This document shows positions 4,879 to 39,451 of a DNA stretch of 64,000 bases, piece by piece. This stretch comes from a virus. The position numbers were made by a program, and so were the translations under genes. Every line of letters starts with the position of its first letter. Positions within the stretch are counted from its first letter, which is position 1. The notes below the pieces were generated by a model that did no database searches, was not told where the DNA came from, and saw only the letters and a program-made list of their open reading frames with translations. The stretch covers positions 1-64,000 of the IMG/VR virus record IMGVR_UViG_3300006028_000010. One strand, written 5' to 3'.

Positions 4879-5250
4879 TTAACCAACAGCAGCTAGGCCA
4901 CTGCTGTGCGCGTGGTCGAACGCTCGCTGCACCTCAGTGGGGATACGCCCCCGATCACTAACATTCCACCCATTCTGCCGGGCCCATTCCCGCACCGCCT
5001 GGGTCTGCTCCCGCGACCGGCTAGGCGCACTCACCGCGCCGCTGCTCTTACGGCCACGCTTACCGGGGACGGACGTAGACATCCGCCGCGCGCTCTCCAC
5101 GAAACCCGCAACAGCGTCAGTGAACTCCTTAATGTTCTCACTGCTCAGATCGATCTCATACTGCGCGCCGTCCACCGCGAACGTGAACGTCCGCTCAGCC
5201 ACCGAACCGTCAATATCATCAATGAACTCACGGATCACCCGCTGCGCCAT
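4879..5250 (-). CDS. lsr2: Lsr2-family nucleoid-associated xenogeneic silencer
   Basis: N-terminal DDIDG...F.VDG..YEIDL dimerisation domain; C-terminal VREWARQNG..VSDRGRIP AT-hook. Confidence 0.95.
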   Translation of the reverse strand: MAQRVIREFIDDIDGSVAERTFTFAVDGAQYEIDLSSENIKEFTDAVAGFVESARRMSTSVPGKRGRKSSGAVSAPSRSREQTQAVREWARQNGWNVSDRGRIPTEVQRAFDHAHSSGLAAVG

Positions 5251-5317
5251 TCGACACTCTCCTATCGCTCAACGCTTCCGAAAATAGGGGGGTGCGCCGA
5301 TACTACACACGCGCCCA

Positions 5318-6301
5318 CTAACCACCTAGGCCAGCCACCGGTGAACTTTGCTCCCGCTCAGCCCGCACCCGTTGCAAGTTCCCATCCCCATACAACCCCG
5401 GGTCAGACACGCGGAAAAACAACTCCGCCTCAGCATCCAACTGACCCTGCGTCTTCAACGACCCCGACCAACCACGCTCATCCTCCACGCTCGCCACCGC
5501 AGCGAACACCGCAGTAGCATCATCGCACCGCTTGTTCCGCGGATACCTCACACCCAACGGATCCGCGTCCTCAATGACCCGCACCAGTTTATTGATGAAC
5601 CAATGCGGCCCGCTGGATTCCAAGATCCGCAACACCCCGTCCCAATCACCGAGCTGGAACAGATCCGTGTACCTCGCCGCACCATCCGTCAAAACCGCGA
5701 GCCGCTCAACCTCACCAAGAGGCATCTGCCCAACCGTGGCCTGGTAAGCCGCAGCCGGGTCCGCCGCGGCGATCCAATACCCCCCAGGTGTGTTCCGGGC
5801 GGCCAGCTCAGCATGCTTCATGGGGACCAACGCCGCCGCTTTCTCGAGGCTACCGATGGGATACCGGTCAACTTCTCGGCGTTCCGCGGCGGCTGACGCG
5901 CTGATCCGCTGATCGCTGACCGGCCACACCCGCCCATCAACGGCGCCGATGACGATCGTGACGTCCCCCAGCACCAGATATTGCATGTCGCCGCCAACGA
6001 CGCGGACGATTCCCACGGCCGCTGATGGGGTGCCCGGGTGGGTCAGGTCACACGTCCCTGCGTGGAGTGTGGCGACGTGAGCGATGGCGTCGTGTAAGGC
6101 GCCGGTTAGGGGCTGGTTGGTGGTGTGGGTGAGGATCGCGGCGCCGAGTTGGCGGGTGTACCAGGCGGCGCCGTGGGCGCAGCCGGTTTCGGTGCGGATC
6201 GTGGCACCGTCGAGGACCACGATCAGGTCTGGTGTGGCGGCGTACCAGTCCTCGGTGGGGACGGACGGGTCACCGGGGGCAGTGGCTGCGGTGACGTTCA
6301 C
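5318..6301 (-). CDS. PP2C-like (PPM-fold) phosphatase-domain protein
   Basis: ED, VLDG, LGD, LTDG and DDATAV motifs; AAGGAG RBS before GTG at 6301. Confidence 0.75.
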   Translation of the reverse strand: MNVTAATAPGDPSVPTEDWYAATPDLIVVLDGATIRTETGCAHGAAWYTRQLGAAILTHTTNQPLTGALHDAIAHVATLHAGTCDLTHPGTPSAAVGIVRVVGGDMQYLVLGDVTIVIGAVDGRVWPVSDQRISASAAAERREVDRYPIGSLEKAAALVPMKHAELAARNTPGGYWIAAADPAAAYQATVGQMPLGEVERLAVLTDGAARYTDLFQLGDWDGVLRILESSGPHWFINKLVRVIEDADPLGVRYPRNKRCDDATAVFAAVASVEDERGWSGSLKTQGQLDAEAELFFRVSDPGLYGDGNLQRVRAEREQSSPVAGLGG

Positions 6302-6354
6302 GACACAGGACTCCTTTAGGTGCGGAGGGAAGTGTTTGGCTGTCGGCATTATTG

Positions 6355-7239
6355 TCATGCGTCGCGCTGCTCGCGGAGCATTCTGACCACCGTCCTCGGA
6401 GGGTGCTCGTCCATTAAGGCCCGTGCCTGCGCTCGTTCGCTGGTGGTGAAGCCGCCGTATTCCTGTTCGATCCGGTTGAGTTCTCGGGCCATGAAGTAGT
6501 CGCCGATGCTGAGGTCGGGGTCGTGTTGATTGTGGGCTGTGACCTGTTCCGGGTCCGTTAGCCAGGACGTGGGTGTGGTCGGCGTGCCGCTCGCGGCCCT
6601 TGGTGCTGGAGGGTGGTCGGCGTCGTCTCGCGCGCACGTTACGTTAGGTGACGCTACGTCATCAACTTGCGTCCTCGTCTCCGGATGAACGGCACGCAAG
6701 CCAAAATGTGATCTTGGGTCTGGTTCTTCTTTTGGGTTTGGTTGCTTTAGTAGGTCTGGTTCTTGATGCGTCAGATCTGACGCATGGTCATGCGTCTCTG
6801 GTGACGCTTGGTGCTGACCTGCGAAAATAGGCTGTTCTTGCACGTCGAGGCCATGCGTCTCTGGTGACGCTTGGGTGGCGTGCTCGGCCTCGACGGTTGA
6901 TGAGTTGTCGGAAGGGTTCGGCGAGAGGTTCGCGAAGGTGTCGCGGGGGTCGTCCAGCGGGAGCCGGTAGAGATTCCCGCCGTAGTGCCCGTCGGCCTTA
7001 CGTGGGCGCACCACGATCAGCGCGTCGGCGACTCTTAGCTTCCGCAGTGCGCGTTGGATCGTGCTCCTTGAACAGCTCAGGTCTTTCGCGAGGCGTTCCT
7101 CGCTGGGGAACGCGTGACGCTTAGCGTTGGCGTACCGCCACGCGATGTATGTGTAGACCCGTAACGCGACAGGATCGGTGACACGCTCTATAACCCAGCA
7201 GGGCACCGCAGCAAACGGGGTCTGGATAGGGGCTGACAC
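6355..7239 (-). CDS. winged-HTH replication initiator-like protein
   Basis: FAAVP.W...FPSEERLAKDLSCSRSTIQRALRKL...N.Y.L; iteron-like repeats within the gene. Confidence 0.75.
   Translation of the reverse strand: MSAPIQTPFAAVPCWVIERVTDPVALRVYTYIAWRYANAKRHAFPSEERLAKDLSCSRSTIQRALRKLRVADALIVVRPRKADGHYGGNLYRLPLDDPRDTFANLSPNPSDNSSTVEAEHATQASPETHGLDVQEQPIFAGQHQASPETHDHASDLTHQEPDLLKQPNPKEEPDPRSHFGLRAVHPETRTQVDDVASPNVTCARDDADHPPAPRAASGTPTTPTSWLTDPEQVTAHNQHDPDLSIGDYFMARELNRIEQEYGGFTTSERAQARALMDEHPPRTVVRMLREQRDA
6766..6874. repeat. three palindromic iteron-like boxes GCGTC-N6-GACGC (candidate origin 1)
   Basis: ATGCGTCAGATCTGACGCAT at 6766-6785; identical 23-mers CATGCGTCTCTGGTGACGCTTGG at 6789-6811 and 6852-6874. 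Confidence 0.7.
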
Positions 7240-7453: not shown

Positions 7454-8179
7454 TCATCCCATGGGTATCCCCAGCAGATAGTCATGTACGGGTTTGAACA
7501 TGCCACCGAAGGGCGCGAACGCGGCGTCAGCTTCGGCCAAACTCACCCAGCGAACGTCACTTAACTCAACGTCATCGCCTACGAACACTTCCGAGTCCTC
7601 AATCGGCGTGCCAGCAATATAAATTATTGTGCGACCGGTCTTCGGGTGGATGCGGCGCCCGAGTTCCACGCCTGGTCTCACGCGTAAGCCGGCTTCCTCC
7701 TTGCATTCTCGGACCATGGCGTCGACGGCTGATTCACCAGGCTCGACTTCTCCGGTGAGGAAGCCAGCCGGGGGTGTTTTGTCGTGTCGGTAGGTGATGA
7801 GCAGGCCACGGTCCGACGTGATGATTGCGGCGACAATGGGCTGCGGCTCAGCGGTCATAGAGGGCTCCAATGCGGGTTGTGGGAGGCCGCTTAGGCGTCG
7901 GCCTTGTCGTGCCAATTGGGACAGGCGTTGGGGGGTGACACCTACCCTGCGGGCGACGGCCGCGATGGTCGTCAGGTCGTCGCTCTGGATCTTGGCGGCT
8001 ATGTCAGCTCGGAGCATCTTGGCGTCTTGCTCTAGTTTTCCGAGTAGATCACGCAGGTCAGACGCTTGCTGGAACGACTTCGCAAGATCGTCTGACCGTC
8101 TGATCGATTCAACGGCCCGCGTGTAGGCACGGGCGATCGCGGCCAGACGTGCTTGGTGTTTGCGCGGGTCGGGGGACAT
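7454..8179 (-). CDS. HTH-NUDIX hydrolase fusion
   Basis: HTH TIAAVARRVGVTPQRLSQL; canonical Nudix box GEVEPGESAVDAMVRECKEEAGL. Confidence 0.85.
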   Translation of the reverse strand: MSPDPRKHQARLAAIARAYTRAVESIRRSDDLAKSFQQASDLRDLLGKLEQDAKMLRADIAAKIQSDDLTTIAAVARRVGVTPQRLSQLARQGRRLSGLPQPALEPSMTAEPQPIVAAIITSDRGLLITYRHDKTPPAGFLTGEVEPGESAVDAMVRECKEEAGLRVRPGVELGRRIHPKTGRTIIYIAGTPIEDSEVFVGDDVELSDVRWVSLAEADAAFAPFGGMFKPVHDYLLGIPMG

Positions 8180-8360
8180 GACTGGGAAGTGTAACCCATG
8201 TGTTGATCGCCCTCGCCGTCGCTGGCCGTAAGACAGGGCTTGCGGATCCACATCCCATGGATTTATGCTATGGAGAGTGCGCGGGAAACGGCCCGCGCAA
8301 TTGCCGAGAAAGGCCGACGTGCGGCGTATTCAGCGCGCCCAAAATGGGACGGAACCCGTA

Positions 8361-9317: not shown

Positions 9318-9478
9318 CCGCCGCCTACGAGCACGACGAGCGTGGCTTGTACCCGGCGGATGATCGGGTGGAAACGTTCGAAGACGTCGTGTATTTCGAC
9401 CGCTACTCGCCGGACCAAACCAGCCCCTACGCCTACTACATCGAACCACGCGACCGGTGGGACGAGGTGACCCGATGA
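9314..9478 (+). CDS. small acidic hypothetical protein (54 aa)
   Basis: GTGA and ATGA overlaps at both ends fill the gap exactly. Confidence 0.5.
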   Translation: MTAAYEHDERGLYPADDRVETFEDVVYFDRYSPDQTSPYAYYIEPRDRWDEVTR

Positions 9479-9987
9479 AAAACAACATCGACGTGCCGGA
9501 CCTCTCCCCGACCGGTTGCACGGTCCTCTTCAGCTACCTACCGGACACCGACGACAGCTTCCCCGTCGCCGTCAAATTAGTTTGGGATCCCTGTGATCCT
9601 CTCGCGGTGCGGCTGGGGTTCGCCCACGGAAACTGGTGGGCGGTGGGTCGCGACCTGCTGGAAGAGGGGTTGTCAACGGACGACGTCGCCGGGTTGGGTG
9701 ATGTCCGGATTTACCCGGACAGGGTTTTCGGCGATTCGGTGATTATTGAGTTCGACAGTCCCGACGGGTGGGCGGTTTTCCGCGCGCCTCGGGACCAGTT
9801 GACCGAGTTCCTGGCGGCAACAGCCCGGCCTGGGGTAGATCCGATGGACGCGTTGGACACGTGGCTTGAGCGGGAGGTACCCGCAGCGAGCCCCCACGGT
9901 TCCGTACCGAGCCTAAACGTTACTGGGATCGGCATAGGAATCGCTTTGATGCTTGCCGGTGTGACGCTTTGGGTGTTCCGTGACTGA
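9475..9987 (+). CDS. SsgA-like protein with C-terminal hydrophobic anchor
   Basis: WDPCDPLAVRL.F...W..GRDLL.EGL....GLGDVRIYP...SPDG.A...FLAAT; C-terminal GIGIGIALMLAGVTLWVF. Confidence 0.85.
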   Translation: MKNNIDVPDLSPTGCTVLFSYLPDTDDSFPVAVKLVWDPCDPLAVRLGFAHGNWWAVGRDLLEEGLSTDDVAGLGDVRIYPDRVFGDSVIIEFDSPDGWAVFRAPRDQLTEFLAATARPGVDPMDALDTWLEREVPAASPHGSVPSLNVTGIGIGIALMLAGVTLWVFRD

Positions 9988-10604: not shown

Positions 10605-10774
10605 GCACATACCGGTGCGATATGGGCTGGTCAGATACCGGCGGCTTTGAGCACGGGTGCCGAAACGAGGCGACCACTCAATTTGGTCTCGCTAGCCTGT
10701 GCGAACCCTGCGCTGATGACCATCGGGCGATTGCGCAGAAGCGAGAACAAGAGCAACGGGAGATGGGCCTGTGA
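10601..10774 (+). CDS. small Cys-containing hypothetical protein
   Basis: MSTYRCD...GC...LCEPC; coupled at both ends. Confidence 0.5.
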   Translation: MSTYRCDMGWSDTGGFEHGCRNEATTQFGLASLCEPCADDHRAIAQKREQEQREMGL

Positions 10775-12660
10775 AACTGTTCGATAATATACGTGCGCGC
10801 CACGAACTGAACACCGCGTTCGGGCAGCTGGACATTTACTGGCATGAGGTTCGCGGCACCGACCGGGACACCCCCGAGGTCAGGGCCGCGGTCATGCAAC
10901 GCTGCGACGAGGCGGTACGCAGCGCGCCAACGTCTTGGGCGCTGGACAGTGTGCACGATCACCTCGCCGACCCGAACGATGAACGGCGCAGTATGGAACA
11001 CGACGAATACATCTGCGCCTGGGAGAAACTACAACTCGAACTAGCCGAAGAAGCGATCGAGGATGAGCTAGACGAAACGGATCCGCTTCTCCGCGAGGAC
11101 GAAGAGGCTGCGTACGAAAAGCTCGCGCCCGCGCAGGATGCGTTTGATCAGCGGTGGCCGTACGCGAAAGAAGCCGACGAGGCAAACCGCCGCGGGTGGG
11201 ACCCCGTTGAGCTCAACAACCGCGAAGGCGACGCGGAACTAGGGACCGATGCGCCGGTTGATGAACTCCCAGCGGACGAGCCGGAGGTTGCTGAAGAGTC
11301 AGTCACGGCAGCGCCCACGCAGTACCTCGGGTACGCCGATGGTGAGCTGGTGCGGGACGTACGGTCCGGTGTTACGGGTCGTGTCCGGGTCCGTGACGAC
11401 GAAGAAATCGGCCGGTATGCCGAGGTCCGGTGGGACGGCGTAGCCGTCAGCGACCAGCTCGAGGTCGCTATCGACAACGGCCCGGAACGCGAGCCGGATC
11501 CTTCGGTTGGTGTACCGGACACTGAACTGGGCCACGAGCTAGACGACGTGGCTGGCGTCGCTGGCGCTAATGAAGCCGAACTTGACGATGACAGGTCTGC
11601 CGAATACCGCGATGACATCAACACCGTAGTTGAAGGGCTCCGTGCTCGCGGTCGCCATGAGGAAGCCCAGATATGGCGCGACGGCGCCGATGAGTTCCTG
11701 GCTGGTCGCACCGGTAGCCATAACTGGCACTCGGCTAAGGAGCTGCTGCACGAGTTCGATCAGGATCCGGCGCCGACGTCGACCACGCCCGAGTTGGGGA
11801 TTGACGACGCGGAGCTCGTGGTCGAACCCGACGGGCTGGCGGAGCCGGAACCAACCACCGACGAAGCAACCGAGCCCACACCCGCCGCGCCCGTGGCGCT
11901 TGAGGTTGCTGAGCCGGAGCTGGTGGCCAGCGAGCAGGAACCAACCGGGCCGGCCAGTCAGGTGGCGCTGACCGAACCCGAGCTGGTGGCTGGTGAGCAA
12001 GAGCTACCCGAACTGGGTCAGCCTGTCGCCGTTGCAACGGCCGAACCAGAACTCGTCGCCAACGAACAGGAACTAGCCGCCCCCACTGCTGACGCTGAAC
12101 TAGAAGCCGACGCCACGCCCCCGAGCGGCGCTGAGGTTGTCGCTGAGCAGGAACAGTCCACCCTGACGGTTGCCGAGCCGGAGCTGACGGTTGACGAGCC
12201 CGGCGCCCCGGATGATGAGGTCAAAACCGACCCCGAGCCGGAGCCGGAGCCCGGGCCGGAGCAGCCGTCGTCGTGGTGGCAATCCAAGACCGCGACCGCC
12301 AAGACCTGGCTAGACAACAAAGCCGCCGTGGTCCGGGGCCGGATACAAGACAAAGCCCAATTCGCCAAGGCGTGGATCAGTGAGCTACGCAGCGGGCGGC
12401 ACCGCCAGTGCCACGGCGCGTGGGAAGAATCCAGCCCGTTCGGCGGTGTCAGCGAATGCACCATCCAAGTCGCGAAAAACGAGTTCGGCGTGTCCCTGGA
12501 TGAGATCCAACGAACCTTCGGGCACGGGCTTGTGAACGACGTTCTTTACCAAAACGACGTTGAAGGAAAGTCGTACCGCCACATCTCGGACTTCATGGAG
12601 GACACCCTATTGAAGGGCCGTCGCCGGGAGTTAGACGGCAGCAAGGAAATCGAATTGTGA
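10771..12660 (+). CDS. large, highly acidic protein with AEPELVA.EQE repeats
   Basis: 629-aa Asp/Glu-rich ORF; GTGA coupled to the coupling-protein gene. Confidence 0.75.
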   Translation: MKLFDNIRARHELNTAFGQLDIYWHEVRGTDRDTPEVRAAVMQRCDEAVRSAPTSWALDSVHDHLADPNDERRSMEHDEYICAWEKLQLELAEEAIEDELDETDPLLREDEEAAYEKLAPAQDAFDQRWPYAKEADEANRRGWDPVELNNREGDAELGTDAPVDELPADEPEVAEESVTAAPTQYLGYADGELVRDVRSGVTGRVRVRDDEEIGRYAEVRWDGVAVSDQLEVAIDNGPEREPDPSVGVPDTELGHELDDVAGVAGANEAELDDDRSAEYRDDINTVVEGLRARGRHEEAQIWRDGADEFLAGRTGSHNWHSAKELLHEFDQDPAPTSTTPELGIDDAELVVEPDGLAEPEPTTDEATEPTPAAPVALEVAEPELVASEQEPTGPASQVALTEPELVAGEQELPELGQPVAVATAEPELVANEQELAAPTADAELEADATPPSGAEVVAEQEQSTLTVAEPELTVDEPGAPDDEVKTDPEPEPEPGPEQPSSWWQSKTATAKTWLDNKAAVVRGRIQDKAQFAKAWISELRSGRHRQCHGAWEESSPFGGVSECTIQVAKNEFGVSLDEIQRTFGHGLVNDVLYQNDVEGKSYRHISDFMEDTLLKGRRRELDGSKEIEL

Positions 12661-14330
12661 CTAAACACAAACAGATAGCGGTCGGCGCTGGGGTGGTGGC
12701 CTGCGTCGCCCTGGTCGGGTGGTTCACCGCCCCGGTCCTCACCGTCATCGTGAGCGCGCTGCTCACCCTCACCACCGTGTACGGCGCCTGGTGGCGGCGC
12801 CGTCGCGCTGGTTCCGCCGCGCTGGTGGCCCGGTGGACGGACAAAGCGAAGAAACACCACGGGGTCGCGAACTACTGGACGATCCTGCGGGTCTCCTCCT
12901 GGTGGTCGCTACGACGCCGGGCCCGCGTCCTACGCCCCTCCCTGCGTGGCCAAACGTGGTGGGCCAGATGGCGACAAACCCCCATCACCCAACTCGGCAC
13001 CCGCGTCATCCGCTCCGGGTGGCTATGGGTCATGTCCAGCGTGGAAGAGCACAGCATCACACTCGGAGGACCCCGCCAGGGCAAGAGTGGACGCCTCGCC
13101 AACACGATCCTCGACGCCCCCGGCGCGGTGCTCGTCACGTCGACTGGCAGCGACCTCGTGCGCAACACCGCTGATCTACGCGCGAAGCTAGGCCCGGTTC
13201 ACATCTTCAACCCATCCAACATCGGCGGCTTAGCATCCACCCTCGGTTTCAACATTCTCGGTGGCTGCGAAAACCCCCGGACCGCCAGCGAACGAGCCGC
13301 TGACCTTCTCTCAGCCACACCCCTAGCGCAGGGCCATAAAGAGCAAGAGTGGGTTGAGCGCGCCACCGAAGCGTTGTCCGCGTTCATGCACGCCGCCGCG
13401 ATCGGCGGGGCCACCATGCACCACGTCCAACGCTGGGTCGCCGACCCCGATGCGGCGATCGAACCGGTACTCGGCATCCTGCGGAACTCGCCGGAACCCG
13501 CGATCGCGCACCAGGCGTTGCAGTTCTTCAAACTCGGCCGCCCACAAAGCTCCGTGTGTATGACGATCACTCCCGCGCTTCGGTGGCTCGCCGACCCGGT
13601 CACCGTCGCCACCGTCACCACCGGTCACTTCGACGTCGCACAATTCCTCGAGCAGCGGGGCACGATCTACCTCCTCGCGGAGAAAGACGGCCCCATCGCC
13701 CCGCTGATCACCGCGTTCGCTGGTCACATCACCCGAACCGCGCGACGTCTCGCCGATCAGCAACCATTTGAGCGGCTCGAGCCGGCATTCACGATGGTCC
13801 CCGACGAGGCCGTTTCCATCTGCCCACTGCCCATCCCATCGTGGAGCGCCGATCTAGGCAAACGGAACATCACCATGCACATCGGCGCCCAATCATTTTC
13901 CCAACTTCAGGACCGCTGGGGCGAGAAAGGCGCGGGCACGTTACTGACGAACTGCGCCACGATCATGGTGTTCGGTGGCACGAAAGACCCCGCAGGGCTC
14001 AACGCGTTCTCCACCCTGGCTGGTGGCCTGTTGACCCCCGCGCAGATTCAGCAGTTGCCGCCGTTGCATGCGGTGGTGTTCCGCAACGGCATGCTCCCGG
14101 TCGTGGGGCGCCCGCAGATGGTGTGGCAACGCCCGGACCACAAAGCAGCGGCCAGCAAAGCCGTGTGGGACACGCGGCTCGCACGAATCAGCGCCATCTG
14201 CCGCGCACCATTCCGGCTAGCCCTCACACCACGCCGCACCCCGGTCCGCCAGCCCATGGCCGCGCTACCCCCCGGTGGGGCCGCGATGCGGGAACACGCG
14301 CAACTCCTCGAACAACACGGACTCAAATAA
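12657..14330 (+). CDS. VirD4/TraG-like type IV coupling protein
   Basis: N-terminal TM helices; GGPRQGKS Walker A, DAPGAVLVTST, FNP, DEA Walker B, QSFSQLQDRWG. Confidence 0.85.
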   Translation: MTKHKQIAVGAGVVACVALVGWFTAPVLTVIVSALLTLTTVYGAWWRRRRAGSAALVARWTDKAKKHHGVANYWTILRVSSWWSLRRRARVLRPSLRGQTWWARWRQTPITQLGTRVIRSGWLWVMSSVEEHSITLGGPRQGKSGRLANTILDAPGAVLVTSTGSDLVRNTADLRAKLGPVHIFNPSNIGGLASTLGFNILGGCENPRTASERAADLLSATPLAQGHKEQEWVERATEALSAFMHAAAIGGATMHHVQRWVADPDAAIEPVLGILRNSPEPAIAHQALQFFKLGRPQSSVCMTITPALRWLADPVTVATVTTGHFDVAQFLEQRGTIYLLAEKDGPIAPLITAFAGHITRTARRLADQQPFERLEPAFTMVPDEAVSICPLPIPSWSADLGKRNITMHIGAQSFSQLQDRWGEKGAGTLLTNCATIMVFGGTKDPAGLNAFSTLAGGLLTPAQIQQLPPLHAVVFRNGMLPVVGRPQMVWQRPDHKAAASKAVWDTRLARISAICRAPFRLALTPRRTPVRQPMAALPPGGAAMREHAQLLEQHGLK

Positions 14331-14348: not shown

Positions 14349-14657
14349 ATGTCTTTTATGACCGGGCTGTATTTGTTCGGTGTGGTGGTCGTGTTCATGG
14401 TGGGGTTCGCGGTGGGGTACGCGGCGCGCAGGGACGACACCCGCGGCTGGTACGAGAGTGGTTACCAGCCGGAACCGGTACCACAAATCGCCGCCCCCAT
14501 CCCCGCCGTAGCCGAACGGGTCCTACCCCCGCAGCAGCCGCCGGCGGTGGTGAACGTGTGGGTCGCCAGCCCGCAACTACCCCAGCCGAATCCGTACGCG
14601 CGGCTCGAGCCACCCATAGACCTCGACGCGCTCCAACTACCGAGGGGCACGCAGTGA
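14349..14657 (+). CDS. membrane-anchored Pro-rich protein
   Basis: N-terminal TM helix, GGGAG RBS. Confidence 0.6.
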   Translation: MSFMTGLYLFGVVVVFMVGFAVGYAARRDDTRGWYESGYQPEPVPQIAAPIPAVAERVLPPQQPPAVVNVWVASPQLPQPNPYARLEPPIDLDALQLPRGTQ

Positions 14658-14784: not shown

Positions 14785-15654
14785 ATGACCGCAGCCGTCC
14801 ACGAACGCACCCCGGCCGCTATCGACACGGCCGGGGTCTCACACGTTGTCCTCACCGGACTATGGGCCGACGCGGCGCTCGTCATGGCCGCATCCGCCTG
14901 GAACGGCGGCCGAGCAGCCCAAGCCCTCGGCGACCCCTTCTGGTGGGGCTTCATGCTCGGCATAGCCGTCGACGTCGGCCTCGCCACCGCCCTCGCCGGC
15001 GACCGGTCCCTCTACCAACTCGGACGACGAGAACCATGGGGCCGCGCCGTCCGCATCGTCACCGCCCTCATGTCCCTCGGCCTCAACTGCGCCTACCCAA
15101 TCTGGGCTGGGCAAGTTGGGCTCGTCCTGTTCCACGCGTTCCTACCAGTCCTGCTTGTCCTGCTCTCCGAGTACGCGCAAAGCCTCACGCTGCACTTCAA
15201 CACAATCGCGGCGGAACAGGTAGCGGCGGTGAAAGCCGACTGGGACGCGAACCACACCGCCGCTCAAGCAGCAGCCGATAGCGCCGCTGAGGCCGCGCGG
15301 ATACGCCAAGAACGCGACGACGCCCGCGTGGAAACCGCCCGACTCCAACGGGAAATAACCCGGCTCAGTGCTGACCTCGAATCGCAGATCACCGCCACAC
15401 GAACCGCCCAGACACAAACCCCACCACCACCTGCAACACCCACCCAACCACCCACCACCCGGCCAACACACAAACAACCCGCAGACCGCGAAACCAGACG
15501 GCAATGGGTCCGAGACCAACGCGCCCACGGAACAACACCCACCGGCGCCGACGTCGACAAACGATTCGGACCACCCCGCAACGGCGCCGCCGTCATCCGA
15601 GAAGTCCTCGCAGAGGAGAAGAACAGGTTGCACGTGGTTGGAGGAAAACGGTGA
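14785..15654 (+). CDS. Spd-like (DUF2637-type) membrane protein with coiled coil and putative C-terminal DNA-binding region
   Basis: About 4 TM helices with a VD motif, coiled coil and Pro/Thr linker; directly upstream of the traB-like gene. Confidence 0.65.
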   Translation: MTAAVHERTPAAIDTAGVSHVVLTGLWADAALVMAASAWNGGRAAQALGDPFWWGFMLGIAVDVGLATALAGDRSLYQLGRREPWGRAVRIVTALMSLGLNCAYPIWAGQVGLVLFHAFLPVLLVLLSEYAQSLTLHFNTIAAEQVAAVKADWDANHTAAQAAADSAAEAARIRQERDDARVETARLQREITRLSADLESQITATRTAQTQTPPPPATPTQPPTTRPTHKQPADRETRRQWVRDQRAHGTTPTGADVDKRFGPPRNGAAVIREVLAEEKNRLHVVGGKR

Positions 15655-17837
15655 CAGACGGTCCCGGCAAGGGTGCTGACATTCTGCGGCTCCCCGTGCG
15701 CAAAGACGCGGGGGGTGACTCGTCACCAGCTGAACCATCAACCTCTGATCTTGACCTGAGGGACACCAGCTTCGAGATCGCCCTCGACGATGCACCCATC
15801 GGCCGACCGGTACCGGTGGATTCGGAACCAAGCAAAGATCCGGTATTCAAACCGGTCATCCCAGAGCACCTACAGACCTGGGTTGGTGTCAAGAGGACCG
15901 CGGTCCGGTTCACGGGCCGGCAGTGGCACAGGGTCAAGGTGCATTCGGTTCGCTCACCGGCGTATGCGTTCTGGGCGGTCATCTACGCGTTTGTGGGCGC
16001 ATACAAAGCCGCCAAGGCGCTGGGCCAGTGGTGTTTTCTGGCCGAAGCTGCCCCGCTGCGCAAACACGCCGCGCAGAACAATCACCACAAGGAATACCTA
16101 GAGCTGCACAAGACCGGGCAAGCCACGGCCTCAGGGCGCGTCAAGCGAACATTATTCGCGGTCGTGTGCCTCATCGCCGCGCTCGCCGCGTTGTTTTTCC
16201 TCGCGCCGTGGTGGATCTGGATTGCCATCAGCGTCTGCCTCATCCTCCTGTTGGCCCACTATGGGAGACCCGCTGACAGGCCAATCGTCAACGCGGCGGT
16301 GGTGACACCACAGTTCCGTAAGCTCAACGCCGATACCGTGCTCCGCGCCTACTACGCCGCCGGGCTGGGCAACGCGGACAAGCCGGACCAGCAAATCAAG
16401 TTCGGATCCACGATGAGCCGCAACCACAACAACACCGGCTCAAAAGTCCTCGTGTGGCTACCCTACGGGAAAGGGTTCGACGACGCCCTCAAAAACAAAG
16501 GAGCCATCGCCAGTGGCCTGGATGTGGCCACCTCACAGGTGTACCTCACCAAACACAAAGACTCGCACCGCGGGCATTGGCTGTTCGTGACTGACGTGGA
16601 CCCGTTGTCCATCCCCGCTGGGCGCACACCACTACTGGACGGGAAGCGGCGGGACATTTGGCGGCCCGCGCCCCTCGGATTAGATGAGCACGCTAACAAG
16701 GTTGCGTTCCCGCTCGTGTTCTGGTCCATGTTGTTCGGGGCGCCACCGAGGAAGGGTAAGAGCTACTCGGCGCGGCTCCTAGCCCTCTACTCCGCGCTAG
16801 ACCCCTATGTGCGGCTGTCGGTGTTCGACGGTAAAGGCTCACCCGACTGGCGCATGTTCGCCGCTGTCGCACACACCTACGGGTTCGGTCTCCTACCGGA
16901 CCGGAAGCAGGGTGACCCGGTGCAGAACCTGCTCGCCACTCTCCGGTCCGGGAAACGCGAGATCCAGGAACGGAACCAGCGCCTATCCGACCTACCGACC
17001 AATGTGTGCCCAGAAGGGAAACTGACTCGGGAGATCGCCCGGAACAAGGCATACAAGATGCCCGTGTGGGTGCTCGTGTTCGACGAGATCCAAGAGTTCC
17101 TGACCCTGGAAGACAAAGCTGTCGCACTGGAGATCGCCCGACTGCTGGTGTCCATCATCAAAGTCGGCCCATCGGTGGGTGTCATCCCCATCACCGCGAC
17201 ACAACGACCAAGCGGTATCGGCTCCGAAGGGAACGTGCAAAAGTTGTTCACCGACTTCCGCGACAACCACCTCATCCGATTCGCGCTCAAGAGCCCGTCG
17301 TGGCAGTTCTCTGACCTTGTACTCGGGGCCGGTGCACACACAGAGGGATACGACGCGGCCACGCTCCCCGTCGGGGACGAATACCGGGGGGTCGGGATCC
17401 TCTACAACGCCCCCGTCGACAACTGCACCGTCCGCTGTTACCTCGCCGATAATGAGGACGCGGAGAAGATCCTGCTTGCCGCGCGGAGGCATCGTGAGGC
17501 GTGTGGAACTTTGGATGGGATGGCCGCCGGTGAAGCTGTTGCGATCCAGCCCCGCGATCCGCTGGCGGACACGCTTGACGTTTTCCAGCTGGGGGAGAAC
17601 TGGCTTTCCTGGACTGAGATCGCGTCGCGTTTAGCGGAGCAGTTACCGGAGCAGTACGCGCAGATAACAGGCCGCGCGATCGGCGACACGTTACGCGGGA
17701 TGAACCTTGGTATTGAGAACTCTGACGGACGCGTACCCAAGTGCGACGAGGTGCCCTCCGGTGTCACGTCCGGCGTCAAGCGGGCAGTGCTGGAGCGGGC
17801 CATAGCGCGACGGGACCGCGAGGAGGTGCGGCCGTGA
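15651..17837 (+). CDS. traB: FtsK/SpoIIIE-family conjugal DNA translocase (TraB-like)
   Basis: TM region; GAPPRKGKS Walker A; FDGKG; LVFDEIQE Walker B; ATQRP; probable C-terminal wHTH (SWTEIASRL). Confidence 0.85.
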   Translation: MTDGPGKGADILRLPVRKDAGGDSSPAEPSTSDLDLRDTSFEIALDDAPIGRPVPVDSEPSKDPVFKPVIPEHLQTWVGVKRTAVRFTGRQWHRVKVHSVRSPAYAFWAVIYAFVGAYKAAKALGQWCFLAEAAPLRKHAAQNNHHKEYLELHKTGQATASGRVKRTLFAVVCLIAALAALFFLAPWWIWIAISVCLILLLAHYGRPADRPIVNAAVVTPQFRKLNADTVLRAYYAAGLGNADKPDQQIKFGSTMSRNHNNTGSKVLVWLPYGKGFDDALKNKGAIASGLDVATSQVYLTKHKDSHRGHWLFVTDVDPLSIPAGRTPLLDGKRRDIWRPAPLGLDEHANKVAFPLVFWSMLFGAPPRKGKSYSARLLALYSALDPYVRLSVFDGKGSPDWRMFAAVAHTYGFGLLPDRKQGDPVQNLLATLRSGKREIQERNQRLSDLPTNVCPEGKLTREIARNKAYKMPVWVLVFDEIQEFLTLEDKAVALEIARLLVSIIKVGPSVGVIPITATQRPSGIGSEGNVQKLFTDFRDNHLIRFALKSPSWQFSDLVLGAGAHTEGYDAATLPVGDEYRGVGILYNAPVDNCTVRCYLADNEDAEKILLAARRHREACGTLDGMAAGEAVAIQPRDPLADTLDVFQLGENWLSWTEIASRLAEQLPEQYAQITGRAIGDTLRGMNLGIENSDGRVPKCDEVPSGVTSGVKRAVLERAIARRDREEVRP

Positions 17838-17890: not shown

Positions 17891-18095
17891 ACCTACCATG
17901 ATCCTCACAGCGGGGACCTGCGACCTACACCTGACAGTAACCGCAGGTCACGCCGCTTCCCTCGTGTAGGTTCTCGTGAAGGTCAGCACCTACGTGTAGG
18001 TCGGCCGAACCTACAGAAACGATCGCATCCGGGGTGCTGTCGCATCACCCGTCGCACCGAACAGACAGCGATGCGATGCGCCGCGCGACCGCGAC
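17891..18095. repeat. clt-like cluster of short direct and inverted repeats downstream of traB
   Basis: ACCTAC(AC)/(GT)GTAGGT at 17891, 17923, 17964, 17988, 17994 and 18009, variant at 17976; then several TCGCA/TGCGA units. Confidence 0.55.
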
Positions 18096-20994: not shown

Positions 20995-21070
20995 GATCGA
21001 GCTGAGCCATATTCGATCACTTGGAGATCAACATGGAAGCCATCATCTTTATCGACATAGCCAAGTACGC

Positions 21071-26708: not shown

Positions 26709-26745
26709 CAGCAGATCCCTCCGAGCGACAAGACACCAGCCACGA

Positions 26746-28079: not shown

Positions 28080-28777
28080 CAGACCCGCGACCCCTTCCTG
28101 GAGTTGCACGACACGCACAGAACTTGCATGTTTTCGTATGCATTAGTTCCACCGCGGGCAAGCGGGACAATGTGATCTACCGTGAGCGAGTTGTTGGCCC
28201 CGCAGGGGCATGTGTGCAACCCAGCTTTGATTTCGGCGTGCAGCCGACGGCGCCCGGCGCTGACTGCGAATGACCGTCGCAACTCTTTCAGCTCGCTCAC
28301 TGAAATGAGATTATTTCGTTTGCGCAGGACCGAGTTGGGCGCAAGATTCGTTTGCGCTATCAACGCGACGGCGGCGTCGAGAGCTCTCTGGTTACCGCTA
28401 GCCTCGAACACGCTCGCGATAAGAAGTTGTAGTGGCCGTGAGCGGACCGCTTCGACGTCACGGATGGCGCGCTCCAGCACGGTTGGAACTTTGAACACAT
28501 ACTCGTCATGGATGGCGTCCTCGATGAACAACTCCGCTGTCTCATCATCGATCGCGATAACGCCATTTGATCGGAGGTCAAGGAGTGCTACGTTAACCCC
28601 GTGATGGGTCATGTTCGTCCATTCAACCCAGAGGTCGGGGAGCAGTGTCGTGACTCCAACCCGGTTAAGGGTTGGAGTGGTGCGAATGGCAAAGTAAAGA
28701 AGTTGCGACCAACGGTGCAATGCGCGGAACTCTGATCGGCGCCATACATGTGTTGAGATTAGCGCTGATTCTCGCAT
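28079..28777 (-). CDS. HNH endonuclease with initiator-like N-terminal domain
   Basis: C-terminal CPCG...LTVDHIVPLARGG.N...NMQVLCVSCNSRK. Confidence 0.85.
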   Translation of the reverse strand: MRESALISTHVWRRSEFRALHRWSQLLYFAIRTTPTLNRVGVTTLLPDLWVEWTNMTHHGVNVALLDLRSNGVIAIDDETAELFIEDAIHDEYVFKVPTVLERAIRDVEAVRSRPLQLLIASVFEASGNQRALDAAVALIAQTNLAPNSVLRKRNNLISVSELKELRRSFAVSAGRRRLHAEIKAGLHTCPCGANNSLTVDHIVPLARGGTNAYENMQVLCVSCNSRKGSRV

Positions 28778-37407: not shown

Positions 37408-37465
37408 GACCCCGGCAACGGCGGCAACCGTCCCGGGGCGTGGCCGACTGGTAGGAGTCGACGTG
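37408..37465 (+). promoter_or_regulatory. structured 5' leader, copy 1, with RBS-occluding hairpin
   Basis: CCCCGG/CCGGGG outer stem, ACGG/CCGT inner stem, GACT-GGTAGG-AGTC hairpin; homologous to 63672-63735. Confidence 0.65.
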
Positions 37466-38173
37466 GGCAACAGTAAGACGAAGGTGAACCGACCGACCCC
37501 CTCTGTTGTCTTTCAGATAGACGAGTTCACCTACGAGGGGCACCCTGTGCGGACGGTGGTCCTTGACGATCAGCCCTGGTTCGTCGCATACGACGTGTGC
37601 CGGATCACCGGGTGGAACCTCATGACTGCTGTATGGTCAGTTCACGGTGATGACCGGTACAGCATCCCCGCGCGATGCCTAGGAACGGGTCAGGCTCATC
37701 TGCGGATCACTGGCGACGATGCGGTCTGGTTCTTCTCCGAGTATGGCCTTCATGACGTCGTGTTTCGCAGCGGCGATCCCTACAGGAAGAACTTCCGGCG
37801 TTGGATCATCGGCGAGCTGCTTCCAACCATCGCGGCACGAGGACTGCCTTCAACTAACAGAACGGACCTGCCGGCGCGTCGCCACAAAGTGACGGTCAGC
37901 AAGAGCGATCAGCGTCGCCAGAAGGTGGATCCCCTGTGGCGCAAGCCGCACGCTCTGTATCGCTTGTTCACCGACCGCTGCGATCTGTTGTATGTGGGCA
38001 TATCACTATCGGCGCTTCAACGGATGAGTTCGCACCGGGCACGACAGCCATGGTGGCACGAAGTGGCATCGATCGAGATCGAGTACTACCCGACTAGGCA
38101 AGCCGTACTTAGTGCTGAGAGACAGGCGATCCGCACGGAGCATCCCAGGTACAACGTCGCGCTCGTGAGTTAG
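37463..38173 (+). CDS. BRO-N antirepressor domain fused to a GIY-YIG nuclease domain
   Basis: F.YEG..VR......PWFVA.DVC...SEYGL...FRRWI..E.LP.I; ALYRLF...LLYVGIS...R...H...E..AI..E.P.YN. Confidence 0.85.
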   Translation: MGNSKTKVNRPTPSVVFQIDEFTYEGHPVRTVVLDDQPWFVAYDVCRITGWNLMTAVWSVHGDDRYSIPARCLGTGQAHLRITGDDAVWFFSEYGLHDVVFRSGDPYRKNFRRWIIGELLPTIAARGLPSTNRTDLPARRHKVTVSKSDQRRQKVDPLWRKPHALYRLFTDRCDLLYVGISLSALQRMSSHRARQPWWHEVASIEIEYYPTRQAVLSAERQAIRTEHPRYNVALVS

Positions 38174-38188
38174 CAGGGGGGGTCAACC

Positions 38189-39451
38189 ATGCCGAACAGT
38201 CGTTTGCGTCCAGGCGAGCCGCCGCGCACCGTCCGTTTCGACGAACGCACTCGCACGCTTGCGGACGGCACCACCAAGACCGTTATCCGTGCGCGGGCCT
38301 ACGTGTGCAACCTTCAGGGCCGCCGCGTGGAGTGCTCCGCGAGCGCGGCCACACAGAAACAAGCCGAACGCAAGCTCCGTCACCTCATTGCTGAAACCTT
38401 CTCCAGTCGTCGACCGACCATCAACGGCCAGACCCGCTTGCGCGCGTTCGCTGAGGTCATGTTCGACGAGAAACGCGCCATGGTCGCCGAAGCCCAGATG
38501 TCACCCGGCTCCCTACGGACTTATGAAGGGCACTGGCGGCGACACATCGAACCCGAACTCGGGGACCTCGCCGTCGAGTGGGTCGGCGTGCAACGCTGCG
38601 ACCGGTTCCTGAAAACCCTGCGGGCCGCACACGGCTATGCCACCGTGAAAGGCGTCCGCTCGGTGCTGTCAGAGATCCTCGCGGTCGCCGTGCGGCATGA
38701 GGTCATCCCCCGTAACCCCATCGAAGGCTGCGCCGACATCCACGGCGACGGCCGGCGCCGCATCAAAGCCCTCGAGGCCGGGGAGGCGGTGCACATTTGG
38801 CGGTTACTGTCAGACCTTGCCCGCACCCCCGCGCCGGCGGTGAACAACCGGCGTTACCGGGCGATGATGTGCGAGGCGTTCATCCCTGATCTGTGGTTGT
38901 GGATGCTCGGCACCGGGGACCGGATCTCTAACGCCCTCGCTGTCCGCTGGCCCTTGATCGACATGGTCAACGGGACCGCGCGCCTCGGCCCGAACGTGAT
39001 CCGGGTCCCCGGCGAAGGTTTACGGATCAACGAGGGCACCAGCAAAAGCCAGGAAGTTGAGGGCGTTGATCTGCCTGAGCAGGTGATCGCGATGCTGCTC
39101 GCCCGCCAACAACGGGATGACTACAACCCGAAGGGGCTGGTGTTCCCCGGCCGGTTCGGGGAGCTTCGTGACCCGTCGAACGTGTCCAGCAAGCAGCTAC
39201 GGCCAGCGTTGAAAGCGATCGGTTACGGGCATGTGTCGTCGCATTGGTGCCGCCGCACCCTCGGGTCGGAACTGAACGCCGCTGGGTGCACCTTGATGGA
39301 GATCGCTGGTCGTCTCCGTCACTCCGATTCGCGGACGACTGAACGTCACTACATCGCTAAACGGGGCGGTAACTCCCGCGTCAAGGCCGCGATCGAGGCC
39401 ATGCTGGACACCGATCCTGAACAAACCGTGATCACATTGAACCGCAACTAG
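38189..39451 (+). CDS. int: phage tyrosine integrase
   Basis: TGDRISNAL (R), SKS (K), HWCR, LRH, HY; adjacent to attP. Confidence 0.92.
   Translation: MPNSRLRPGEPPRTVRFDERTRTLADGTTKTVIRARAYVCNLQGRRVECSASAATQKQAERKLRHLIAETFSSRRPTINGQTRLRAFAEVMFDEKRAMVAEAQMSPGSLRTYEGHWRRHIEPELGDLAVEWVGVQRCDRFLKTLRAAHGYATVKGVRSVLSEILAVAVRHEVIPRNPIEGCADIHGDGRRRIKALEAGEAVHIWRLLSDLARTPAPAVNNRRYRAMMCEAFIPDLWLWMLGTGDRISNALAVRWPLIDMVNGTARLGPNVIRVPGEGLRINEGTSKSQEVEGVDLPEQVIAMLLARQQRDDYNPKGLVFPGRFGELRDPSNVSSKQLRPALKAIGYGHVSSHWCRRTLGSELNAAGCTLMEIAGRLRHSDSRTTERHYIAKRGGNSRVKAAIEAMLDTDPEQTVITLNRN

What the first reader, a model, noticed from the sequence alone, without database searches (positions are those of the whole stretch)
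4879..39451. Temperate phage carrying a Streptomyces-type conjugation module and a second replicon (candidate conjugative phage-plasmid)
Seen: one contiguous molecule has tail and lysis genes, repressor/cro, integrase with an intact attP and a phage initiator-loader-DnaB replicon. It also has an ~18-kb block with a second initiator and iterons, HTH-NUDIX, a VirD4-like ATPase, a Spd-like membrane protein, a TraB/FtsK translocase followed by short repeats, and a Xer-like recombinase with a dif-like site. Established: TraB, clt and Spd proteins drive dsDNA conjugation of Streptomyces plasmids and AICEs such as pSAM2 and pSVH1. Inference: this element may have three lifestyles (virion, integrated prophage, extrachromosomal circle that spreads between hyphae by conjugation). 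I saw no att-like duplication flanking the block, which favours an integral module over a recently inserted AICE, but I could not test this exhaustively.
Basis: partly seen in the sequence, partly recalled or inferred. Interest (0 to 1): 0.88.

Follow-up and report, generated by a model that had tools for sequence, protein, structure and literature searches.

The report
Temperate actinophage with plasmid-type DNA-transfer region
A 100-kb temperate tailed phage of a filamentous soil actinomycete carries an 18-kb region with the DNA pump (TraB), docking repeats and helper genes that Streptomyces plasmids use to push double-stranded DNA between hyphae, here joined to a second, VirD4-type transfer ATPase; it may therefore also spread without virus particles, but this is untested and two Streptomyces plasmid-phages are a precedent.

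Summary
The window is the first 64 kb of a 100,329-bp IMG/VR virus record. It encodes a full siphovirus (terminase, portal, capsid, tape measure, lysin), a tyrosine integrase, a CI/Cro-type switch, RecT plus nuclease, and an initiator-loader-DnaB replicon.

Bases ~4.6-22.8 kb hold plasmid/AICE-type genes:
- Lsr2, an O/RepA-like initiator with 22-bp repeats inside its own gene, and a Pif-like NUDIX;
- WhiB and two SsgA-like genes;
- one operon of acidic protein, VirD4-like coupling protein, TM protein, DUF2637-like protein and TraB;
- a clt-like cluster of ACCTACAC 8-mers right after traB, then small membrane proteins;
- a dif-like site and a Xer-like recombinase.

A second assembly of the probable source sample spans both junctions. 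There are no att repeats, and composition equals the backbone. TraB relatives occur in 15 IMG/VR contigs; 12 have locus-specific repeats at the same place, 11 have a terminase and four have terminal repeats. The phage-like 'plasmid' pPaSha2 also encodes a TraB relative. The region therefore looks integral, not a recent AICE insertion.

Conjugative spread is plausible but untested. Plasmid-phages pZL12 and pFP4 are precedents, and this scan already holds 41 notes naming phage-borne TraB and clt, in at least 37 genomes. The unusual part is VirD4-like plus TraB without relaxase or VirB4.

The parts
4879..5250 (-). Lsr2-like nucleoid-associated protein; left-most gene of the region
   Evidence: Pfam Lsr2 6e-23 and Lsr2_DNA-bd 7e-16. 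In run X2 a relative's contig matches from 4571 rightwards only.
5318..6347 (-). 342-aa protein (ATG at 6347), weak PP2C-like
   Evidence: PP2C_2 1.5e-4, below cut-off. The start is read from the sequence. Homologues up to 53% identical lie beside T4CP relatives in 5 of 80 bacterial loci.
6355..7239 (-). O/RepA-like replication-initiator candidate (N-terminal wHTH) with repeats inside its own gene
   Evidence: HTH_36 9e-11. Ten PHROG families match, mostly 'replication initiation', best 1e-11. Weak hits to the RepA-like initiator of two Arthrobacter phages and to a GntR regulator.
6765..6875 (-). Candidate iterons/origin: 2 x 22-bp direct repeat 60 bp apart, a CGCAGGTCA core between them, and an adjacent 20-bp palindrome
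   Evidence: Read directly from the sequence. 4 of the 20 GCGTCAY.. words in the window fall in 6645-7120.
7454..8251 (-). NUDIX hydrolase, Pif-like by position and family
   Evidence: NUDIX 7e-17. Pif of pSAM2 is a NUDIX immunity factor (PMC2440964).
8265..8645 (+). WhiB-like regulator
   Evidence: Whib 6e-17.
9457..9987 (+). SsgA-like protein
   Evidence: SsgA 1e-18.
10771..12660 (+). 629-aa very acidic repeat protein, no TM segment; its stop overlaps the T4CP start (4 nt)
   Evidence: Translation. No family in Pfam, PHROGs or NCBIfam. Kept upstream of the T4CP in L034-L036.
12657..14330 (+). VirD4/TraG-type coupling protein (T4CP) with N-terminal hydrophobic segment
   Evidence: PF02534 8e-18 and PF12696 6e-16, both over cut-off. 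NF045973 6.5e-13. Hydrophobic 5-45.
14349..14657 (+). 102-aa single-TM protein
   Evidence: Hydropathy. Conserved after the T4CP in L034-L036.
14785..15654 (+). 289-aa membrane protein, DUF2637-like by topology and position (SpdB-like partner candidate)
   Evidence: Translation. Weak alignment to DUF2637 proteins of pPaSha2 and an S. chartreusis plasmid, E 0.02-0.03. 41% identical homologue directly before traB in L036.
15651..17837 (+). TraB-like FtsK-family dsDNA translocase, 728 aa
   Evidence: phrog_1358 4e-18. pSG5 TraB 6e-26, 28% over 393 aa. The fold's best matches are FtsK motor domains, E 2.8e-10. Walker A GK is invariant.
17895..18030 (.). clt-like site: ACCTACAC 8-mers in both orientations around a CGCAGGTCA core
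18034..19212 (+). Small ORFs: an 86-aa soluble protein, a 2-TM zinc-ribbon protein (18291-18566), a lipoprotein-like TM protein and a 67-aa TM protein (Spd-like by kind only)
   Evidence: Hydropathy and sequences. The 18291-18566 homologue follows traB in 7 of the 15 IMG/VR loci and in L036.
20552..20977 (+). Second SsgA-like protein of the region
   Evidence: SsgA 1e-8.
20967..21070 (.). dif-like site (CATAA-N6-TTATG) with flanking inverted repeats
   Evidence: Sequence read; first noted in e1-6075655.
21071..21427 (+). DUF6221 protein
   Evidence: PF19730 1e-18.
21412..22500 (+). Xer-like tyrosine recombinase; right-most gene of the region
   Evidence: Phage_integrase 1e-19. XerD/XerC models 2e-28 and 3e-27, below cut-offs.
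23025..28118 (-). Backbone next to the region: sigma factor, SsgA-like, DnaB helicase, loader-like protein, phage initiator
35839..39451 (+). Lysogeny module: HTH_31 repressor, Bro-N/GIY-YIG, tyrosine integrase

Best explanation
This is one temperate siphovirus genome, in its non-integrated form, from a filamentous actinomycete of unknown identity. An 18-kb plasmid/AICE-like region is a settled part of it.

The core of that region is a TraB-clt dsDNA transfer module of a type that recurs in uncultivated temperate actinophages.

Proposed mechanism (inferred):
1. In a lysogen or carrier cell the circular phage genome is bound at the ACCTACAC repeats by TraB, acting as a hexamer anchored in the membrane together with the DUF2637-like protein. 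It is then pumped as double-stranded DNA into a neighbouring hypha.
2. The small membrane proteins downstream help it cross septa.
3. The NUDIX protein limits redundant transfer.
4. The O/RepA-like initiator and the Xer-like/dif-like pair replicate the circle and resolve multimers.
5. The integrase establishes lysogeny.

The VirD4-like ATPase and the acidic protein coupled to it are an extra of unknown role. They may be a second substrate-recruiting ATPase for the same membrane apparatus.

Shown: gene content, homology, repeat architecture, one contiguous molecule, recurrence in phages. Inferred: every step of the mechanism.
For: One molecule:
- A 37,180-bp Logan contig covers 4000-23900 with 0 differences and flat depth of about 19.6.

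Phage identity:
-, and a CheckV completeness of 100%.

TraB:
- 28% identity, E 6e-26, to pSG5 TraB, colinear with Walker A and B.
- 33 actinomycete plasmids hit.
- Best PDB fold matches are FtsK motor domains, then the TcpA conjugation protein.
- Hydrophobic segment at 163-207; the AF2 model ends in a helix-strand domain (residues ~600-728).

clt-like site:
-. In 12 of 15 relatives the 200 nt after traB hold 4-7 copies of a locus-specific 7-mer. In 10 of these at most 2 other 200-nt windows of the locus reach that count.
- Established knowledge: hexameric TraB binds 8-bp TRS repeats at clt and transfers dsDNA (PMC4170104).

Integral to phages:
- 11 of 15 IMG/VR contigs with TraB also have a TerL, and 4 have terminal repeats.
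- Their TraB neighbours are CI/Cro HTH genes, integrases, lysins and DUF2637.
- pPaSha2 is a phage genome with a DUF2637-FtsK pair.
- Phages sharing the left-flank helicase pair also carry FtsK-like genes nearby.

No sign of a recent insertion:
- no att repeats; GC 0.628 against 0.626; tetranucleotide correlation 0.90, within the 0.81-0.95 range of other segments.
Against: - No experiment or read-level evidence shows a circle, transfer or expression.
- PF01580 does not score this TraB.
- The ACCTACA 7-mer count alone is unremarkable: 15 of 315 other windows reach it. The case rests on the exact 8-mer clustering and on the relatives.
- The Rep-like and NUDIX genes are replaced in a 95%-identical relative, so not all parts are needed.
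- No parAB genes and no end repeats were found.
- Equal GC would also fit an AICE from the same host.
- ftsK-, ssgA- and whiB-like genes of actinophages are usually read as tools to manipulate host development (PMC10117723).
Confidence: 0.55

Rival explanations
1. The TraB-like pump and the SsgA, WhiB, sigma and Lsr2 genes serve the phage inside its own host. They would move or segregate phage DNA across septa or into spore compartments and reshape septation. There would be no cell-to-cell conjugation.
For: The phage carries three SsgA-like, two WhiB-like, one Lsr2 and one sigma gene. Reviews list ftsK, ssgA and whiB of actinophages as development manipulators (PMC10117723). TraB relatives in phages sit in the lysogeny region.
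Against: The nearest characterised homologues are conjugative plasmid TraB proteins. No isolated phage in INPHARED has this family. A NUDIX Pif-like gene and a T4CP point to transfer between cells.
Confidence: 0.2
2. The 18-kb block is a separate AICE or IME-like element that inserted into the phage, or was captured by it, and hitch-hikes in its capsid.
For: Its content matches AICE modules: Tyr recombinase at one end, Tra, a Rep candidate, NUDIX, HTH regulators (PMC2440964, PMC3218068). At 100 kb the genome is larger than the TraB-carrying relatives of 40-71 kb. In run X2 a relative's contig matches only from 4571 rightwards.
Against: No flanking repeats and no tRNA were found. The candidate recombination site is internal, not at the ends. 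Composition equals the backbone. TraB modules are a regular part of related phages.
Confidence: 0.15
3. The region is a decaying remnant without function.
For: There is no relaxase or VirB4 for the T4CP. The Rep-like and NUDIX genes are variable.
Against: All large genes are open and tightly packed, with overlapping stops and starts. Walker motifs are intact. 95%-identical copies occur in JGI metagenome contigs (Ga0207664, Ga0070714) and in run X2.
Confidence: 0.07
4. Assembly chimera of a phage and a plasmid or AICE.
For: It is a metagenome contig; the record is 'linear' without end repeats.
Against: A second assembler gives a contig across both junctions at uniform depth. It used data from the probable source sample, so the assembly is independent but the data probably are not. 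Composition is uniform.
Confidence: 0.03

Closest known systems
Streptomyces plasmid-phages pZL12/phiZL12 (Zhong et al. 2010, J Bacteriol 192:3747) and pFP4 (Chen et al. 2012, Plasmid 68:170). Both are known here only through citing papers (PMC3583192, PMC4487206, PMC4170104); the original papers are not held.
   Same: One replicon carries virion genes together with a plasmid replication locus and a conjugal transfer locus. An 88-kb Streptomyces plasmid fits the published description of pZL12 and pSLE1 (ParAB, type III PKS, phage operon). It shares TerL (46% identity), capsid and a glycosyltransferase with this phage.
   Different: This genome has an integrase and no parAB. Its TraB family gives no match in that pZL12-like plasmid. 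It adds a VirD4-like T4CP, a NUDIX gene and a Xer-like recombinase with a dif-like site. That the 88-kb plasmid is pZL12-like is my inference from its annotation.
TraB-clt transfer system of Streptomyces plasmids (pSVH1, pSG5, pIJ101, pJV1)
   Same: An FtsK-like motor of about 730 aa with a membrane segment. 28% identity to pSG5 TraB. Short repeats directly after traB. Small hydrophobic ORFs downstream.
   Different: It is too diverged for PF01580. The repeat word is its own. It sits in a phage, and it shares an operon with a T4CP.
AICEs such as pSAM2, SLP1, pMEA300 (PMC2440964, PMC3218068)
   Same: The module set: Tyr recombinase, Tra, a Rep candidate with repeats inside its own gene (as for RepAM), a NUDIX (Pif-like) gene and HTH regulators. 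The size of 18 kb fits.
   Different: It is not flanked by att repeats or a tRNA gene. The Rep is not of RepSA, RepAM or Prim-Pol type. It is embedded in a virion-encoding genome.
Pseudonocardia alni 'plasmid' pPaSha2 (CP052773.1) and 15 IMG/VR contigs
   Same: Phage genomes with a DUF2637/TraB-like pair beside lysis, immunity and integration genes.
   Different: They are 30-59% identical in TraB. No T4CP, NUDIX or Rep-like gene lies within 10 kb.
Relaxase-dependent T4CP modules of actinomycete plasmids (e.g. S. chartreusis NZ_CP108823.1: DUF2637, T4CP, MobF)
   Same: A VirD4/TraG-type ATPase next to a DUF2637-type membrane protein.
   Different: No relaxase or VirB4 is present here. In the top 25 plasmid hits of each search, T4CP and TraB never fall on the same record. 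Only 1 of 80 bacterial T4CP loci has a TraB-like match nearby.

Membership tests
TraB/Tra dsDNA conjugative translocases of Streptomyces plasmids and AICEs | FtsK/HerA-type P-loop motor with Walker A and B | tested here: met
   GK of Walker A is invariant in 20 homologues. The motifs align with pSG5 TraB. The best PDB folds are FtsK motor domains, E 2.8e-10 (model pLDDT 70).
TraB/Tra dsDNA conjugative translocases of Streptomyces plasmids and AICEs | Scores with Pfam FtsK_SpoIIIE (PF01580), the criterion used for AICE Tra proteins | tested here: not met
   No Pfam hit at E<0.01. No six-frame hit at E<=1 in the whole record.
TraB/Tra dsDNA conjugative translocases of Streptomyces plasmids and AICEs | Sequence homology to a TraB of a known conjugative plasmid | tested here: met
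   pSG5 738-aa FtsK/SpoIIIE protein: E 6e-26, 28% over 393 aa, colinear. That this pSG5 gene is traB is from my own knowledge.
TraB/Tra dsDNA conjugative translocases of Streptomyces plasmids and AICEs | Membrane-association region and C-terminal winged-helix DNA-binding domain | tested here: inconclusive
   Hydrophobic 163-207. Long N-terminal helices and a C-terminal helix-helix-strand-strand-helix unit appear in the model at pLDDT 65-88. There was no separate fold match for the C-terminal domain.
TraB/Tra dsDNA conjugative translocases of Streptomyces plasmids and AICEs | Cognate clt with repeated 8-bp words near traB | tested here: met
   5 ACCTACAC-type words in 17923-18016. Equivalent locus-specific arrays occur in 12 of 15 relatives. 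Binding is not testable here.
AICE (actinomycete integrative and conjugative element) | Int, Rep and Tra modules with int at one end | tested here: inconclusive
   Tyr recombinase at the right end, TraB in the middle, a Rep candidate at the left. The Rep is not RepSA, RepAM or Prim-Pol, and Tra fails PF01580.
AICE (actinomycete integrative and conjugative element) | Integrated copy flanked by direct att repeats, usually in a tRNA gene; attP directly downstream of int | tested here: not met
   No repeat beyond chance between the two borders. No tRNA or tRNA fragment.
AICE (actinomycete integrative and conjugative element) | NUDIX (Pif-like) gene and GntR/XRE regulator, present in most AICEs | tested here: met
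   NUDIX 7e-17; HTH_36 with a weak GntR match; small HTH ORF 19104-19481.
VirD4/TraG type IV coupling proteins | T4SS-DNA_transf and TraG-D_C domains over cut-off, N-terminal TM | tested here: met
VirD4/TraG type IV coupling proteins | Works with a relaxase and a VirB4-type T4SS encoded nearby | tested here: not met
   None among all ORFs over 100 aa of the region scanned in Pfam, PHROGs or NCBIfam. A partner supplied in trans cannot be excluded.
Phage-plasmids (P1-, N15- or pZL12-like) | Virion genes plus plasmid replication and partition genes on one replicon kept extrachromosomally | tested here: inconclusive
   Virion genes are present. The second initiator is only a candidate. No parAB was found; the only ParB-like domain is fused to a methylase. 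No end repeats. An integrase is present.

The most novel reading that the evidence does not exclude
An integrating temperate phage is self-transmissible as naked dsDNA through its own TraB-clt system. Here that system has recruited a VirD4-type ATPase that shares the DUF2637-like membrane partner. This ATPase might export the co-translated, very acidic protein, which could act as a DNA-mimic anti-restriction factor, into the recipient ahead of the DNA. That would make a two-ATPase, relaxase-free conjugation apparatus carried by a virus.
Probability: 0.25. Interest if true: 0.85.

Novelty: new variant of a known kind. Interest (0 to 1): 0.6.

Why it matters
If phage genomes of filamentous actinomycetes can move between hyphae by TraB as well as by virions, then host range, lysogen spread and gene flow in soil would not be set by receptors alone. 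The line between phage, plasmid and AICE would blur further.

The TraB-clt pairs with locus-specific repeats give directly testable protein-DNA specificities. The conserved T4CP, DUF2637-like and TraB operon offers a way to ask what a coupling protein does in a system that needs neither a relaxase nor a T4SS.

Tried and rejected
The contexts of the closest TraB (66-67%) and T4CP (75%) relatives could therefore not be read. Co-occurrence of T4CP and TraB on three more contigs is only inferred from equal contig lengths.
- Single-protein scans of IMG/VR with TraB and T4CP found nothing; the alignment query was needed.
- Megablast of the region and tblastn of TraB and T4CP against isolated phages found no match.
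- Search for att repeats: only chance-level 10-13-mers.
- Search for an attP or tRNA fragment with Rfam: nothing. ARAGORN found none.
- The closest backbone relative (L032, DnaB 79%) ends at the sigma gene, just before the informative junction. No empty-site comparison was possible.
- Run X2 covers the stretch only in pieces. Its gaps say nothing about absence. The point where its contig stops matching at 4571 may be divergence below 90%.
- The SsgA and WhiB paralogues inside and outside the block are too diverged to show common descent.
- The GCGTCA word count is not enriched window-wide.
- No terminal overlap of the record.
- Host identity was not established.

Full report
What the DNA is. 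The window is bases 1-64000 of a 100,329-bp IMG/VR virus record, classed linear, with a CheckV completeness of 100%. GC is about 63% throughout and there are no tRNA genes. Family searches give a complete siphovirus set on the minus strand. TerL is at 80826-82451, the portal at 77484-80240, the major capsid at 74722-75681 and the tape measure at 64695-68435 (record coordinates). A minor tail protein is at 58503-61010 and the endolysin at 42475-43923.

Next comes a lysogeny and DNA-metabolism arm:
- Tyr integrase 38189-39451, Bro-N/GIY-YIG, and an HTH_31 repressor at 35839-36552 divergent from small HTH genes.
- A PD-(D/E)XK-like nuclease and RecT, an N6 methylase and an HNH nuclease.
- A phage initiator (phrog_2149, 8e-59), a loader-like protein and DnaB.
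- An SsgA-like protein and a sigma factor.

The integrase lies inside the contig with phage genes on both sides. The record is therefore not a prophage cut at that integrase's att site. An 'intact attP' could not be verified.

The region in question. From about 4.6 to 22.8 kb the gene content changes to plasmid/AICE-type.
- On the minus strand: Lsr2; a 342-aa weak PP2C-like protein; an HTH_36 protein that hits ten PHROG families, most of them annotated as replication initiators; and a NUDIX protein.
- On the plus strand: WhiB; an SsgA-like protein; a 629-aa extremely acidic repeat protein whose stop overlaps the start of a VirD4/TraG-type coupling protein (PF02534 and PF12696, both over cut-off); a 102-aa single-TM protein; a 289-aa multi-TM protein; and a 728-aa FtsK-like protein whose start overlaps the preceding stop.
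- After these come small hydrophobic ORFs, an HTH ORF, a second SsgA-like gene, a dif-like CATAA-N6-TTATG site, DUF6221 and a Xer-like tyrosine recombinase.

No relaxase or VirB4 was found among any ORF over 100 aa in the region.

Is the 728-aa protein a TraB? Pfam PF01580 does not score it, so by the HMM criterion used for AICEs it fails. Other tests agree that it is one:
- PHROG 1358 (FtsK/SpoIIIE-like) scores 4e-18.
- tblastn finds it on 33 actinomycete plasmids, mostly small Streptomyces plasmids.
- BLASTP to the 738-aa FtsK/SpoIIIE protein of pSG5 gives E 6e-26 and 28% identity over 393 colinear residues, including both Walker motifs.
- An AlphaFold model built on 20 homologues (mean pLDDT 70) has FtsK motor domains as best PDB matches (E 2.8e-10). 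The FtsK-like conjugation protein TcpA and the EssC/EccC ATPases follow.
- It has a hydrophobic segment at 163-207 and a C-terminal helix-strand unit compatible with a winged helix.

The clt-like site. Directly after the stop codon, positions 17923-18016 hold three exact and two one-mismatch copies of ACCTACAC in both orientations. The whole 64-kb window has only one other exact copy. On its own the 7-mer count is not extreme: 15 of 315 other 200-nt windows reach it. The relatives make the case. In 12 of 15 IMG/VR loci with a TraB relative, the 200 nt after traB contain 4-7 copies of a 7-mer. The word differs between loci (CCGCTAC, CGGAACG, CGCGACC, CGCTACC, CGCGGCA, CGCTGCA and others). In 10 of these loci at most two other windows reach the count. 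A shared TGACCTGCG/CGCAGGTCA core lies among the repeats. This is the published architecture of clt, in which hexameric TraB recognises plasmid-specific 8-bp TRS repeats and transfers dsDNA (PMC4170104). A small 2-TM zinc-ribbon protein (18291-18566) is conserved just downstream in 7 of the 15 IMG/VR loci and in L036.

Integral module or inserted AICE? Several tests bear on this.
- Junctions. A Logan contig of 37,180 bp from run X1 (a rhizosphere metagenome and probably the source sample) spans 4000-23900 with no differences and flat depth. This is an independent assembly, but probably of the same data.
- Borders. No direct repeats beyond chance link the two borders, and there is no tRNA fragment. 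The candidate site of the Xer-like recombinase is internal, as expected for a resolution site or an unused attP.
- Composition. GC is 0.628 inside against 0.626 outside. The tetranucleotide correlation of 0.90 lies within the 0.81-0.95 range of other 18-kb segments. Bacterial loci with T4CP relatives average 0.70 GC. An AICE from the same host would look the same, so this is only consistent, not decisive.
- Recurrence. 15 IMG/VR contigs carry TraB relatives (43-59% identity). Eleven also have a phrog_9 terminase, and four have direct terminal repeats, at 40, 45, 53 and 71 kb.
- Neighbourhood. Within 5.5 kb of traB in 12 of those contigs, 113 ORFs were scanned. HTH_31 matched 9 of them and HTH_3 matched 7 (Cro/CI-type families, whose members may overlap). 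Phage_integrase matched 4, a serine recombinase 1, Amidase_2 3 and GH25 1 (lysins), and DUF2637 3.
- pPaSha2. This 41.9-kb Pseudonocardia alni 'plasmid' is a phage genome (terminase, portal, protease, capsid, holin, Bet, integrase) with a DUF2637-FtsK pair. Its FtsK is 30% identical to this TraB.
- Shared flank. Phages that share the left-flank HNH-helicase/197-aa gene pair also have FtsK-like or NUDIX genes a few kb downstream.

Together this favours a long-standing phage module. The empty-site test could not be done, because the closest backbone relative ends one gene short of the junction.

Mosaic variation. Two short JGI contigs (T4CP 95-96% identical at protein level; about 90-96% at nucleotide level over the aligned blocks) and run X2 (a microbial fuel cell metagenome) carry the same WhiB-SsgA-acidic-T4CP stretch. 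In L035 and in X2 the Rep-like and NUDIX genes (2.05 kb) are replaced by about 1.08 kb encoding a different HTH protein. The 'second replicon' is thus a swappable cassette.

Its identity as an initiator is probable, not certain. Only the N-terminal wHTH finds relatives: the RepA-like initiator of two Arthrobacter phages and a GntR regulator of a Streptomyces plasmid. The two 22-bp repeats lie in the linker-coding part of its own gene. Lambda O and RepAM have a comparable arrangement (RepAM: PMC2440964; lambda O: own knowledge).

The coupling protein. T4CP relatives at 40-49% identity are common in Pseudonocardiales and other actinomycete genomes (309 loci). A TraB-like match lies nearby in only 1 of the 80 loci examined. 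On plasmids the top 25 hits for T4CP and for TraB share no record. In an S. chartreusis plasmid the T4CP sits with DUF2637 and a MobF relaxase.

In contrast, contig L036 (T4CP 81% identical) keeps the order acidic protein, T4CP, small TM protein, DUF2637-like protein, TraB-like protein, although its TraB is only 24% identical. The pairing is therefore conserved while TraB was exchanged, which suggests a functional link. What the T4CP does without a relaxase or T4SS is open. Export of the coupled acidic protein is my speculation.

What is known. Streptomyces plasmid-phages pZL12 (replication locus, traA-traC, plaque-forming virions) and pFP4 are published. I could read them only through citing papers. 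An 88-kb Streptomyces plasmid fitting their description shares TerL (46%), capsid and a glycosyltransferase with this phage, but not its TraB family. Reviews also list ftsK, ssgA and whiB as actinophage genes thought to manipulate development. This scan itself holds 41 notes that name phage-borne TraB and clt, in at least 37 genomes, and another note on the two ATPases of this same stretch. I did not use those notes as evidence.

Verdict. The most likely reading (0.55) is a temperate phage whose genome includes a functional TraB-clt transfer module with AICE-like accessories, giving a possible virion-free route of spread. The rivals are an intracellular or developmental role (0.2), a hitch-hiking AICE (0.15), a remnant (0.07) and a chimera (0.03). 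It is a new variant of a known kind. The distinctive feature is the relaxase-free operon that couples a VirD4-type ATPase to TraB inside an integrating phage.

Noticed in passing
window 6302-8355; L035:306-1347: In a 95%-identical relative (JGI contig Ga0070714_100010876 and run X2), the Rep-like and NUDIX genes are replaced by about 1.08 kb. That stretch encodes one HTH protein with an unrelated C-terminal domain.
   Followed up: partly
window 17942-17950, 6815-6823, 8052-8060; clt-like regions of L004-L018: A CGCAGGTCA / TGACCTGCG core is shared by the clt-like regions of most TraB relatives, in either orientation. It also sits between the two 22-bp repeats inside the Rep-like gene. There are 6 copies in the window against about 1 expected.
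   Followed up: partly
P0038, P0059 (TraB relatives); P0131, P0141 (T4CP relatives): Some homologues are 300-350 aa longer and carry PF14528 (a LAGLIDADG-type homing endonuclease domain), which suggests inteins in both transfer ATPases.
   Followed up: no
CP052773.1 (L019, L020): The Pseudonocardia alni 'plasmid' pPaSha2 (41.9 kb, circular) is annotated with terminase, portal, prohead protease, capsid, holin, Bet and integrase.
   Followed up: partly
window 5318-6347: Homologues of the 342-aa weak PP2C-like protein (up to 53% identity) lie within 10 kb of T4CP relatives in 5 of 80 bacterial loci. It may be a partner of the coupling protein.
   Followed up: no
window 18291-18566: A small protein with two TM helices and a CxxC...CxxC zinc ribbon is conserved directly after the clt-like site in 7 of the 15 IMG/VR loci and in L036.
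   Followed up: partly
window 8265-8645, 9457-9987, 20552-20977, 23025-23648, 23904-24488, 30901-31479, 4879-5250: The phage carries three SsgA-like genes, two WhiB-like genes, a sigma factor and Lsr2. This is an unusually rich set of host-development and nucleoid regulators.
   Followed up: no
window 4637-4804: A 55-aa ORF with 93% GC3 encodes a His/Trp/Arg-rich peptide (…HHRDHGRHRRGHWGWWRDRWGH…), just left of Lsr2. In run X2 the relative's homology starts at 4571.
   Followed up: no
window 19504-19563: Five tandem copies of a 12-nt unit (GAGGCAAGCCGA) lie about 70 nt before the start of the 19582-19782 ORF. Its coding status is unclear.
   Followed up: no
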